Shown: positions 3,082 through 16,327 of the stretch, one piece after another
How positions within the stretch are numbered: position 1 is the first letter of the stretch
Layout of the letters: each line of letters starts with the position of its first letter
NCBI GenBank assembly: GCA_951406725.2
Contig: OX597821.1
Coordinates: 86,056,001 to 86,120,000 of the forward strand
Length of the DNA: 64,000 nucleotides
Source of the DNA: Octopus vulgaris
Taxonomy: Eukaryota
Direction of reading: 5' to 3'
Made by a program: the position numbers and the translations under genes
The notes under the pieces: model-generated
What the model was told of the DNA's origin: nothing
Seen by the model: only the letters and a program-made list of their open reading frames with translations
Database searches by the model: none

Positions 3082-4706
3082 ATATAGACGCAAGCCTGAT
3101 ACTGTGACGAGAGGCCTACTTCTCAGCTACATCGTTCTGGGCTTCGCCCCATTGCGTGAAACCTAAGGGAAAGGCCTTCTACTATAGCTCCGGGCTGACC
3201 AAAACTTTGAGTGGATTTGGTAGACGAAAACTGAAAGAAACCCTTCACACATACACACACGACGGTCTTCTTTTAGCTTCTATTTACTAAATCAGATCTA
3301 CAATATTTTGGTCGGTCCAAGGCTATAGTAGAAGACATTTGCCCAAGGTGCTACGCAGTGACACTGAACCCAGAACCATGTTGTTGGGAAGGAAACTTCT
3401 TACCACACAGCCACACCTGCGCCTAGGATAACAGTGACATTTTATTGTTATTTTTTTTTCTTTGTAAGACGGTAGTACGCTATTTGAGGAAAATTTAGCG
3501 GGCAATTTCTAATAGGTCGTGTAACCCGTAGAGAGGCATCCACGTTAGCTTGGATCAATCAATGACAATTTCTGCGTGTGATGAACAACTCCCCAAAATT
3601 TACGAGCAATAAAAATAAATGATGCGGATGACAAATCGGTTTTAGAGATTTCTTTCATCTGGACATTTTTTTATAAATTGTAAATACGTCGCTGCTGCTT
3701 CACAGCTGGTGTTTCACAGCTGCTGCTAAAGTTACCGTTTGTTTTAGCCTTTGGTCAAACCAGATCTTCTAAGCCCTTAATGGATCGCATTTCAATTGTA
3801 ATCATTTCGTCTTTTAAGGGCTGTAGAATGACAGTTATTGCTCCAAATCAGTACTATCATCAAAGACATTCCAGCCACAACCATCCTGTCTTTTATACAG
3901 ACACAGTACAATACAGACTATATTATCCACAGTCTCCCCCACTGTTTTAAGGATGAGATAAGAGGACCAGAATGTTAGGGTATTTGGCTACTATGTCTAG
4001 CAAGTCGAGTTGTCGCGTAGGAGCTCTTTGTTGGTTTGTAGTTGTTTAGCACTTGGGTAACTCTGAGTAGTTAGGCCTATCATCGAATACTTTCCATTCA
4101 AGACCATGCCATCTTTTCGAGTATCTGGGACTACATTAACTAATGTATCCATCCCGTTCTTAAGACTGCAGGCTGTGATTTGAGGGAGATTTAGCTGTTA
4201 TTTCTAGCAGTTTGGTAGACGATATAAAGGCATTCTCGTTGATGTACGTGTTAAGGCTTCTTTGTCTTCACAGTAAAATACATTTTTATTATTTTTGTTA
4301 TTCGTATTTAGCTTCAGATCCGCATTGATTGAACAGTGTCAATGAGGTTTCATTTTTTTTCAGTGTAGCTTGATTCCAGAGTGAAATGGCTGCTATTTCT
4401 AGCAAGAGGAGCGACTACGTACAAGTTCTTTCAATATTCGAATATAGGAGGTGCAAGAGGAAGAAAAAGAAATAGAGAAAAAGAAAGGGAAGAAGAAATA
4501 AAGATAGTTAAATGAGGAGAGAGAAAGAGAGAGAGAGAGAGAGAAGAGTAAGCGGGAAGCATGCACTACATGGATAAATTGGATATAAACATAAAGTGGC
4601 GATATGTGTGTGTATACACAGACACACATGATGAGGTACTGAAAAGTTCCTGGCATTGGGTAACAGAAAATACAGGAGGATCAGTTAATTATGATTTTAG
4701 TCAACA

Positions 4707-5066
4707 CTAGCAGTATCGCCCGGCGTTGCTCGGGTTTGTAAGCGAAATAACTATAAAGCATTTTTAGAGAGTTATAGCCAAAAAATGGAAAAAAAATGAT
4801 GGTAAATTTTTTTTTCGTTAAAAAGGTCGAGTTGCGTCCCCTAGACAGTCTGTGGTTTGTGTTTCTGATTCTCGACCCCATGTCGAATTTATCGATTTTT
4901 TCAGAACTGGGGGAACTTTTCATAATTTTCGCTGCGTTAGTTTTGAATTATGACATTGAGCTATGTGTGTGTCAAGTTTCATCAGAATCGGTTGAAAGCC
5001 GTGGTCAGGGTGAGGGTACAACCTAACAGACACACACAGACAAACTGCCGTTTATATATAGAGAGA
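4707..5066 (-). mobile_element. Non-autonomous Helitron
   Basis: Minus strand 5'-TC...CTAG-3'; subterminal hairpin CCCGGCGTTGCTCGGG; inserted between A4706 and T5067 with no TSD; splits a MITE whose uninterrupted copy reads tcaaca|tattccc. Confidence 0.82.
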
Positions 5067-5237
5067 TATTCCCATCTCAGATTCTCACACCTACTGCAGC
5101 GGGCCTTCAGTTTTTCTAAGCCTTGCAAAAGAACTCGGAAGGTTTGGCGAAACATCAACAGGAAAGAAAGAGAGCCTATCTCAACAAGACATTATAACAA
5201 TTGTTACAATGTCTTGTTGTTGAGATAGGCTCTCTTT

Positions 5238-7995: not shown

Positions 7996-8738
7996 ATTTT
8001 AATCCATTCTTGTTGCTTTTTTCCTATATATATATGTATATATAGAGGGAGAATTCACAAAAAAAAACAACAAAAGACGAAGACAGATGGTGTAGACAAC
8101 AAACAGATGTATTAGTATAACGCTCGGGAAGTGTGAAAGTCTTTTACGTTTCGAGCCTACGCACTTCCACAGAAAGGAACACAGAAGGAAACAAGGAGAG
8201 AAACACACACATACACTCCGAGTATGCACACAAACACACATATATATGTGCATAGAGACCGAGAGAGAGAGAGAGAGAGAGGGAGAGAGGGAGAGAGGGA
8301 GAGAGGGAGAGAGGGAGAGAGGGAGAGTTAAAGAGAGATGGAGAGAGTGAACAGAGAAAGAGCAACACATATATGCCTTACAGCATCGGACAAAATGCCT
8401 TGCTGTATCTGCTTCGGCATTTTACGTACTGCGCTCAAATTCCCGCGTGGACAACTTTTGCTTTTCATTCTTCCGGGATCGATAAAAGTCCTGGGATCGA
8501 TATAACTGATTACCCTCATCTTTTAAAACTGCTGGCCTTGAGGCTCAAATCTGAAGCGCGCGCACGCACATTTATACACACATTTATACGAGGGTGTGCT
8601 GCAAAGTTTCTGGCGTTGGGTAAAAGAAAATACAAGAGAATCAGTTAATGGTGACAACAATTGCAGCGTGGAAGGTGTTTGTAAGCCATTTAAGAAACAC
8701 ACAAAAGCCGTTCGATTCACTTCAACATTTAAGTTTAA

Positions 8739-8789
8739 TTTGTCAAAATATTTTCGTCGCTTTAAGACCGCGACCTGTTCACTGACAAA
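8739..8789 (-). ncRNA. Variant hammerhead-like fold (G3:C8 core swap)
   Basis: Reverse complement: TTTGTCA-GTGAACA-G-GTCGC-ggtcttaaa-GCGAC-GAAA-ATAT-TT-TGACAAA. 7-bp stem I, 5-bp stem II, palindromic AATATT. Confidence 0.6.
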
Positions 8790-9262
8790 AATGGTGATTT
8801 TATTTTTAATATTCCCCTATCAGATTCACATACTTATTGCAGCGGTCCTTCAGTTTTTCTAAGGTCTGTAAAAGAACATGGAAGTTTGGCTCTCCAGCCA
8901 GGCCTTTCGCAATACCCTTAAAACTAGGAACTTTTCAACACCCTTCGTGTATACATGTTTATATATATATATAAATCAAAGGAAAATAACATTAAATCGC
9001 CGAAATAACATTGATAATAACTACGGAAATCAACTGTCTGCGAGCAAACGAGTCAAGAAAAGCATTTAACAAACCTATATAGCAGCATCCGGCTATATAT
9101 TTTCTAGTATTTGGACTCACGTGGACCACTTTCTGGACTGGCATTATAGCCTCATCTTTCTCAGCACGTGTTACCACGATGAAGAAACCCCCAACCCGTC
9201 ACTTGAAGTCTGCACTTCACTGATTTGCTTCGCGCTAAATCATAATGTGAAAATGATTCCAA

Positions 9263-15519: not shown

Positions 15520-16125
15520 AATTATTTTATTGACCTCTAATAACTGGGATATAGCGGGACCCTATTAGGACACAGACAGACAATAATAACAGCGTGAGTC
15601 ACGTATAATGTCGTGCATCCACGCAAAACCGGACAAACTACGAAAGATTCCCTCGCTTCCCGTGTATGTTGGTATATTTAAGGTTCAGTATTCTCATTTG
15701 TTTAATTGATATAGACAGATATTCTTAGCACCGACTACCCGTTGATTCGTTGTGCACTCCCAGTAATTAACTCGTGTAATTGAACTAAAATTACTTTGCC
15801 TAGGTTCATCATACGTTCACACTTACATACATACGTACATACATACATACATACATACATACATACATACATACATACATACATACATACATACATTATT
15901 ATGGCTGCCTCCTCGTTATCGAGTATGGCTATTGCACGAAGCTTAACTGTTATCGGTGTTGTGATCGAATGTGACTTTTTAGCTCAGCTAAAGATCTACA
16001 ATGTCTTGTACAAAATTGGCAACTAAAACCTTCACTGGTAATAGCCAGCTGTAGTTGTAACTGGGCTTCATGTACATACATACATACATACATACATACA
16101 TACACACACATGCTTATATACTGTA

Positions 16126-16327
16126 CGAGGGGCTGGCTTGGGTAAAAGAAAATACAGGAAGATAAGTTAATTACGATCTTATTCAACATATTCCCCTCTC
16201 AGATTCACACACTTATAGCAGGGGTCCTTCAGTTTTTCTAAGCCCTGTAAAAGAACTCGGAAGGGTGGGACACCAACCAGTCCTTTCGTGATACCCGTAA
16301 AGCCAGGAGCCTTTCAGCACCCCCTCG
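16126..16327. mobile_element. Mariner-type MITE (interrupted copies 4631-5150 and 8589-8947)
   Basis: TA|CGAGGGG...CCCCTCG|TA termini; three copies share the internal sequence gggtaaaagaaaatacagg...tcagattcacac...ccttcagtttttctaag. Confidence 0.78.

What the first reader, a model, noticed from the sequence alone, without database searches (positions are those of the whole stretch)
8655..8789. 135-bp TSD-flanked insertion carrying a hammerhead with a G3:C8-swapped core
Seen: an insertion in a mariner MITE, bounded by the 8-bp direct repeat AATGGTGA (8647-8654, 8790-8797). One end coincides with stem I of a minus-strand fold TTTGTCA-GTGAACA-G-GTCGC..GCGAC-GAAA-ATAT-TT-TGACAAA. Established: C3 and G8 form a tertiary Watson-Crick pair in the active hammerhead, and the compensatory G3:C8 swap is tolerated. 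Inference: both partners being swapped while stems I and II stay perfect suggests a selected natural variant (also one extra G after A9, UUU site) that CUGANGA searches would miss.
Basis: partly seen in the sequence, partly recalled or inferred. Interest (0 to 1): 0.75.

Follow-up and report, generated by a model that had tools for sequence, protein, structure and literature searches.

The report
Swapped-core hammerhead in Penelope retroelement
The 135-base insert is a truncated copy of an abundant Penelope-type jumping gene whose hammerhead RNA motif has two paired core letters swapped throughout the family, while sister families use other matching pairs; it likely still cuts slowly as a dimer, but cutting is untested.

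Summary
Observation confirmed: TSD, stems and G3:C8 core are as described. The insert is not a stand-alone element. It is a 5'-truncated 3' end (pLTR) of a GIY-YIG Penelope-like element (PLE): 30 of 30 endonuclease loci carry the motif about 1 kb downstream, and tandem copies place it in the 5' UTR, 56 nt before the ATG. G3:C8 is family-wide (6,460 exact matches versus 0 canonical; 68 of 76 readable cores in an unselected sample). Related PLE families in the same genome carry C3:G8 or U3:A8 with compensatory stem II changes, which supports selection on the pair. The extra nucleotide and U17 are ordinary for PLE hammerheads, and the end at stem I is incidental. Copies mostly begin 22 nt upstream of G3, often behind an untemplated G (cap-like), and show no peak at the cut site, so uncleaved RNA is the template. 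I found no natural G3:C8 hammerhead in the papers searched; the key 2017 variant paper was unavailable. Cleavage is not shown. This scan noted the same swap before, in this genome and in others. New variant of a known kind.

The parts
8585..8952 (.). Host mariner-type MITE (approximate ends; degenerate terminal inverted repeats; 'mariner' is a recalled label)
   Evidence: inverted arms 8596-8611/8926-8941; uninterrupted paralogues in the window and in loci
8647..8654 (+). Target-site duplication, copy 1 (AATGGTGA)
8655..8789 (-). 5'-truncated 3' end (pLTR, short end class) of a Penelope-like element, family 1
8655..8689 (-). First 35 nt of the element's ORF (ATG at 8687-8689, MAYKHLPRCNC); the end is the likely short internal start site of reverse transcription
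   Evidence: (continuous frame in L064), (47 of 100 3' ends at +22 to +37)
8739..8745 (-). Hammerhead stem I, 3' strand (TGACAAA); predicted cut between 8746 and 8745
   Evidence: the site is inferred from canonical numbering
8746..8755 (-). G12-A13-A14-A15.1, palindromic helix III AATATT (8747-8752), U16.1 (8747), U17 (8746)
   Evidence: no lineage-level variant among 131 copies
8756..8774 (-). Stem II (GTCGC/GCGAC) with 9-nt loop II
8775..8775 (-). Extra nucleotide between A9 and G10.1
   Evidence: known PLE feature (PMC4209133)
8776..8782 (-). Core strand GTGAACA with G3 (8782) and C8 (8777)
8783..8789 (-). Hammerhead stem I, 5' strand (TTTGTCA)
8790..8797 (+). Target-site duplication, copy 2; its last three bases on the minus strand (ATT) equal the family's next bases (microhomology)

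Best explanation
The insert is a truncated copy of the pseudo-LTR of a Penelope-like retrotransposon, and its minimal type I hammerhead motif carries a family-wide G3:C8 pair that likely preserves slow, dimer- or protein-assisted self-cleavage. Shown: parent element with C-terminal GIY-YIG endonuclease, position of the motif in the 5' UTR, fixation of G3:C8, other Watson-Crick 3:8 pairs in sister families, two 3' end classes, and a 5'-end cluster with an extra G. Inferred: the mRNA starts (capped) at the A 22 nt upstream of G3; the element's RT starts inside the ORF at about +30-35 or +88-94 and copies uncleaved RNA back towards the cap, giving the thousands of short inserts. Also inferred: two RNAs pair through the AAUAUU palindrome and exchanged stem I strands, and cleavage after U17 would remove the first ~58 nt with the cap, 56 nt ahead of the ATG, so it would process tandem read-through RNA or damp expression rather than define the ends of insertions.
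For: Parent: 30 of 30 endonuclease loci have the motif ~1 kb downstream on the same strand. A 1,025-codon open frame has GIY-YIG (Pfam E 1.8e-5) and RT-like features (atlas 0.96 to clusters with RVT_1 in 30-48% of members). Motif and ATG are continuous with that ORF in L064/L065. Fixation: 6,460 G3:C8 versus 0 C3:G8 and 401 non-C8 exact 20-mers; 94 of the first 100 listed in the older subfamily; 68 of 76 readable cores in 100 copies chosen on the ORF start only. Selection: among 131 copies, lineage-level changes (14% or more) fall in loop II (4 columns), flanking UTR (5) and one wobble-preserving stem I site, none in core, palindrome or stem II. Across 11 hand-picked rows of three related families (45-50% amino-acid identity) the 3:8 pair is C-G 4, G-C 4, U-A 3, never unpaired, and two stem II pairs change on both sides. 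Literature: a lab C3G/G8C double mutant partly restores cleavage of a PLE hammerhead, which needs the PLE protein; RT starts at two internal ORF sites on uncleaved RNA (PMC11167929). Template: 62 of 100 5' ends lie 7-26 nt upstream of G3, mode -22; G precedes that A in 31 of 55 junctions, 16 of 25 outside inverted pairs, against 18% background.
Against: No cleavage data. No peak of 5' ends at the cut site (one inverted pair at +33/+34 and one copy at +38, of 100). G3.G8 mismatches are 35 of the first 100 non-C8 copies, more than A8 (19); in 4 of 8 two-armed loci both arms carry G8, so broken-pair RNAs or cDNAs were inserted. Lab G3:C8 swaps rescue only partly, and HHR mutants do not affect insertion in vitro (PMC11167929). 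The 11 rows represent three or four lineages and two independent changes of the 3:8 pair, so the shuffle statistics overstate support; the count of pairs changed on both sides was not above shuffles (225 of 500). Part of the 131-copy sample was selected on the core sequence. The minimum-energy dimer showed exchanged stems but no helix III.
Confidence: 0.62

Rival explanations
1. The motif is a hammerhead descendant that no longer cuts to any useful degree; its fold is kept for another job (binding the PLE protein, controlling translation or promoter function), and the swap was carried along by a successful lineage.
For: 72 of 100 unselected copies reach G3 or beyond across an uncut junction, with no footprint at the cut site. 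G3.G8 copies recur. HHR activity is dispensable for insertion in vitro (PMC11167929). PLE minimal hammerheads cut poorly (PMC4209133).
Against: Positions 3 and 8 changed together twice among related families and stay Watson-Crick, which is what the catalytic tertiary pair predicts. All other core positions are kept across the subfamilies sampled. G8 copies form no clade (21 changes on a poorly resolved 77-row tree).
Confidence: 0.3
2. The 135 bp is a self-contained ribozyme-defined mobile unit (a retrozyme or SINE) whose end is set by the hammerhead.
For: Clean 8-bp TSD; one end at stem I; short copies far outnumber ORF-bearing ones (9,309 ORF-start matches versus 24 matches to a stretch further into the ORF). 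An earlier scan note describes a satellite of a swapped-core PLE end (e1-8672697, not checked).
Against: The sequence is continuous with the autonomous PLE on both sides. Ends fall in the ORF start and near the -22 site, not at the cut site. Pairs are mostly head-to-head inverted, a PLE trait.
Confidence: 0.05
3. The hammerhead reading is a chance fit to an AT-rich repeat.
For: No Rfam match; folding z-score 0.14.
Against: 0 descriptor hits in 30 shuffled windows; it sits where PLE hammerheads sit; sister families carry the canonical core in the same register.
Confidence: 0.02

Closest known systems
Minimal type I hammerheads of metazoan Penelope-like elements (Cervera and de la Pena 2014, PMC4209133; read: parts 1-2 of 4, supplement file 2 part 2 and search passages; file 1 not readable)
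   Same: Type I topology in the pLTR, extra nucleotide between 9 and 10.1, G10.1-C11.1, palindromic helix III implying dimers, U17 frequent (about 20 of the 44 rows seen), most copies dispersed and truncated; U3-A8 covariation known.
   Different: Core is G3:C8; none of the 44 alignment rows seen has G3. Stem I is longer (7 bp), helix III is a 6-nt palindrome, and the extra nucleotide is G (their consensus H; one G row seen).
PAc (Poseidon, Anolis) hammerhead and internal RT initiation (Frangieh et al. 2024, PMC11167929; read: parts 1-2 of 4)
   Same: Hammerhead at the pLTR-ORF junction, two 3' end classes inside the ORF start, AT-rich targets, uncleaved RNA as template; C3G/G8C partly active as a lab mutant.
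   Different: Here the swap is natural and fixed; the motif lies wholly in the 5' UTR rather than overlapping the start codon; the tail is about 58 nt; the protein has a CX3CxxC linker of Neptune/Nematis type.
Natural core variants of hammerheads (Perreault et al. 2011, PMC3088659; read: passages)
   Same: Natural covariation at the 3:8 pair.
   Different: The passages report U3-A8 only.
Animal non-LTR retrozymes (Li et al. 2026 bioRxiv 10.64898/2026.07.22.740005; read: part 1 of 5)
   Same: Short non-coding hammerhead-bearing inserts related to PLE pLTRs.
   Different: This copy is a solo truncated end of an autonomous PLE, not a tandem unit bounded by ribozymes.

Membership tests
EN+ Penelope-like elements | Single ORF with RT and C-terminal GIY-YIG endonuclease | tested here: met
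   1,025-codon frame in L062; Pfam GIY-YIG at 915-1005; RT by atlas features 0.96 and a YVDD motif (recalled). Pfam RVT_1 and PDB gave no hit.
EN+ Penelope-like elements | pLTRs: partial tandem and inverted 5'-truncated copies, optional 3' tail | tested here: met
   Tandem junction in L065; inverted copy in L062; two 3' end classes, 47 and 53 of 100
EN+ Penelope-like elements | Hammerhead in the pLTR | tested here: met
   30 of 30 endonuclease loci
Neptune/Nematis clades | CX2-5CxxC linker before GIY-YIG | tested here: met
   CQSNCAVC in the frame; definition from PMC8557442 passages
Neptune/Nematis clades | Placement on an RT phylogeny with named references | not tested
   No reference PLE proteins were at hand
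PLE minimal type I hammerhead | Core CUGANGA ... GAAA ... NUH | tested here: not met
   G3 and C8 replace C3 and G8; all other core positions are kept
PLE minimal type I hammerhead | Watson-Crick pair between positions 3 and 8 | tested here: met
   G:C here; C:G and U:A in sister families
PLE minimal type I hammerhead | Stems I and II, G10.1-C11.1, extra nucleotide after 9, palindromic helix III | tested here: met
PLE minimal type I hammerhead | Self-cleavage after N17 (as dimer or protein-assisted) | not testable with these tools
   No assay; only assembled contigs were available
Non-LTR retrozymes | Tandem non-coding units each bounded by a hammerhead, circular RNA | tested here: not met
   Solo copy continuous with an autonomous PLE; ends not at the cut site; circles not testable

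The most novel reading that the evidence does not exclude
An active natural G3:C8 hammerhead, so that one small PLE clade has used three of the four Watson-Crick pairs at the catalytic 3:8 position. It sits between the cap and the start codon as a dimer-dependent decapping switch that limits the element's own expression, while thousands of cap-to-ORF cDNA inserts record the uncut RNA.
Probability: 0.3. Interest if true: 0.7.

Novelty: new variant of a known kind. Interest (0 to 1): 0.5.

Why it matters
It widens the natural hammerhead consensus from Y3:R8 to include G3:C8, so standard descriptors and Rfam models undercount ribozymes (thousands here). Evolutionary covariation at 3:8 in PLE minimal hammerheads is also one of the few indirect arguments that these slow motifs are kept for catalysis, which is an open question. 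The cap-like G and the two internal RT starts map the element's RNA from genomic copies alone and put the cut site between cap and start codon, which makes a regulatory role directly testable.

Tried and rejected
Rfam: no hammerhead match. Fold z-score uninformative. Intron-acceptor reading of the CTAAC...TTTCTYAG stretch: considered, then disfavoured because truncated copies keep the AG, have unshared flanks and an extra G; splicing itself was not tested. Hammerhead overlapping the coding frame: rejected, since stops occur in the young subfamily and the ATG lies downstream. A separate G3.G8 subfamily as evolutionary intermediate: not supported, 0 of the first 100 in the older subfamily and no clade (short alignment, weak tree). 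A second G3:C8 family: none evident among the first 100 of 249 matches, control 103; that pattern demanded T not at 10.2 and an A/T-rich helix III, so others may be missed. A3:U8 was not searched specifically. Genomic footprint of cleavage: none. Expression: no RNA holder on record; runs were contigs of guessed type, which is no evidence either way. PDB sequence search of the ORF: 0 hits. One row of alignment A1 had wrong coordinates, so A1 was dropped and replaced by A2. Not held: Lunse et al. (PMC5785218), Przybilski and Hammann 2007 (PMC1986816), Martick and Scott 2006 (PMC4447102), Nelson and Uhlenbeck 2008 (PMC2271363). PMC5785220 was a wrong paper. PMC11014351, PMC13725137 and PMC2920678 passages held nothing on a natural G3:C8.

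Full report
Observation. The window shows AATGGTGA at 8647-8654 and 8790-8797 around 135 bp. Uninterrupted copies of the host MITE carry the site once, and the two window repeats share a window-specific change, so the duplication is real (261 sequences examined). A descriptor open at positions 3 and 8 hits only this site in the window and none in 30 shuffled windows. Rfam has no match and the fold energy is unremarkable.

What the insert is. The genome (2.8 Gb, animal) holds thousands of copies: 6,460 exact 20-mers of the core region and 9,309 of a downstream 26-mer. Many are head-to-head inverted pairs ending in TA repeats. One copy runs upstream into a GIY-YIG endonuclease with a CQSNCAVC linker, and 30 of 30 loci fetched with that protein have the motif about 1 kb downstream on the same strand. 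L062 holds a 1,025-codon open frame (the first ~20 codons are read-through from an inverted copy) with GIY-YIG at its C-terminus and RT-like features (Pfam RVT_1 and PDB gave no hit), preceded by an inverted truncated copy. L064 and L065 show the junction motif - 56 nt - ATG MAYKHLPRC..., continuous with that ORF. This is the pLTR layout of EN+ Penelope-like elements (PMC8557442 passages; PMC6765202 section 11 part 2). The linker is of Neptune/Nematis type; no phylogeny with named references was run.

Is the swap fixed? The canonical C3:G8 version of the 20-mer has 0 matches and non-C at position 8 has 401. In the older subfamily 94 of the first 100 of 1,825 matches are G3:C8. Among 100 copies chosen only on the ORF-start motif, 76 have a readable core and 68 are G3:C8 (one of the other 8 is a false alignment). 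Fixation alone shows descent, not selection.

Evidence for selection. Within the family, among 131 copies, variants at 14% or more lie in loop II (4 columns), in flanking UTR (5), at two synonymous ORF sites, and at one stem I site where A to G keeps a U.G pair. None lies in the core, palindrome or stem II (part of this sample was chosen on the core, and G8-selected loci were left out). Between families, a canonical descriptor gives 1,146 matches against 150 for its control. Family 3 has C3:G8, stem II GTCAC/GTGAC, palindrome AAATTT and C17. Family 2 has stem II GTTGC/GCAAC, palindrome AATT and U17, with U3:A8 in one group and C3:G8 in another. All three share the extra G and a recognisably related tail, and their proteins are 45-50% identical over 297-382 aligned residues. 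On 11 hand-picked rows the 3:8 pair is C-G 4, G-C 4, U-A 3, and two stem II pairs change on both sides. These rows stand for two independent changes of the pair, so this is suggestive, not statistical. By parsimony C3:G8 is ancestral and G3:C8 arose by two transversions on the family 1 line (inference).

Evidence against. G3.G8 makes up 35 of the first 100 non-C8 matches (A 19, T 46; counted by hand). On a 77-row tree with position 8 masked these copies need 21 changes and are not clearly clustered (30 of 500 shuffles as low); 4 of 8 two-armed loci have G8 in both arms. So C8G recurs, partly at or before insertion, and a broken pair does not block insertion. This agrees with PMC11167929 (parts 1-2 read): hammerhead mutants do not affect insertion in vitro, C3G/G8C rescues only partly, and cleavage needs the PLE protein.

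How the copies arise. In the 100 unselected copies the 3' ends form two groups, 47 at +22 to +37 and 53 at +73 to +94 of the ORF, matching the two internal RT starts described for PAc. The 5' ends cluster 7-26 nt upstream of G3 in 62 of 100, mode -22 (14 copies); only 4 go further, and 72 include G3. The -7 class is inflated by subfamily mismatch to the reference, and some downstream ends are internal deletions. There is no peak at the cut site. Where the copy begins at the -22 A without templated upstream sequence, the preceding base is G in 31 of 55 junctions, and in 16 of 25 outside inverted pairs, against 18% G in the loci. An untemplated G is the recalled signature of copying a 5' cap, so I infer that the mRNA starts there and that short inserts are cDNAs of capped, uncleaved RNA. 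An internal promoter at the pLTR has precedent in Penelope (PMC2377424 passages). The window copy is a short-end copy that stopped 12-15 nt before the inferred start, at a 3-nt microhomology; its ending at stem I is incidental.

Mechanism. Most likely (0.62) this is a slow minimal hammerhead acting as a dimer or with the PLE protein; cleavage would cut about 58 nt behind the cap and 56 nt before the ATG, processing tandem read-through RNA or damping expression. The main rival (0.3) is a non-cutting fold kept for another purpose. Minimum-energy cofolding of two copies gives strand-exchanged stems (-30.6 versus -13.8 kcal/mol for one monomer) but not helix III; it does not decide the matter.

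Novelty. The extra nucleotide, palindromic helix III, U17 and U3-A8 are described (PMC4209133; PMC3088659 passages). G3:C8 appears in the papers I saw only as a lab mutant (PMC11167929; PMC8495972 passage; PMC3884650 passage). Searches found no natural case. Lunse et al. 2017, the paper most likely to list such variants, was not held, one supplement file of PMC4209133 was unreadable, and Repbase/Dfam could not be consulted, so absence from print is not established. Earlier notes of this scan describe a swapped-core PLE hammerhead in this genome and similar swaps in three other windows of other genomes; they are unchecked and do not count as support. Verdict: real, a new variant of a known kind, activity unproven; interest 0.5.

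Noticed in passing
L261-L347 (100 copies on contig C1) and other family 1 loci: 5' ends cluster at one A 22 nt upstream of G3, often behind an untemplated G: a likely cap signature that maps a PLE transcription start from genomic copies.
   Followed up: yes
L117-L146, L226-L245: Recurrent C8G in family 1, more frequent than C8A, on several backgrounds, in both arms of 4 of 8 inverted pairs and often with neighbouring changes; cause unknown.
   Followed up: partly
L248:1620-1660 and the opposite arm: One inverted family 2 insertion has U3:A8 in one arm and C3:G8 in the other.
   Followed up: no
L062:2968-6045 (minus); L064, L065: Young autonomous PLE: long open frame, near-identical endonuclease copies on many chromosomes, microsatellite-rich 1-kb 3' UTR.
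   Followed up: partly
L166-L195: Several further canonical minimal-hammerhead repeat families in this genome (1,146 matches, control 150); one lies near a GIY-YIG-like hit (L169).
   Followed up: partly
L077, L078: Local tandem clusters of short family 1 copies (several units within 3 kb), possibly satellite-like.
   Followed up: no
L199, L200, L210-L212, L222, L224: A group of near-identical composite copies that share the same inverted junction and downstream flank, suggesting secondary amplification inside another repeat.
   Followed up: no
window 4636-5148 and 16120-16322: Two more copies of the host MITE; the first is interrupted by another insertion.
   Followed up: partly
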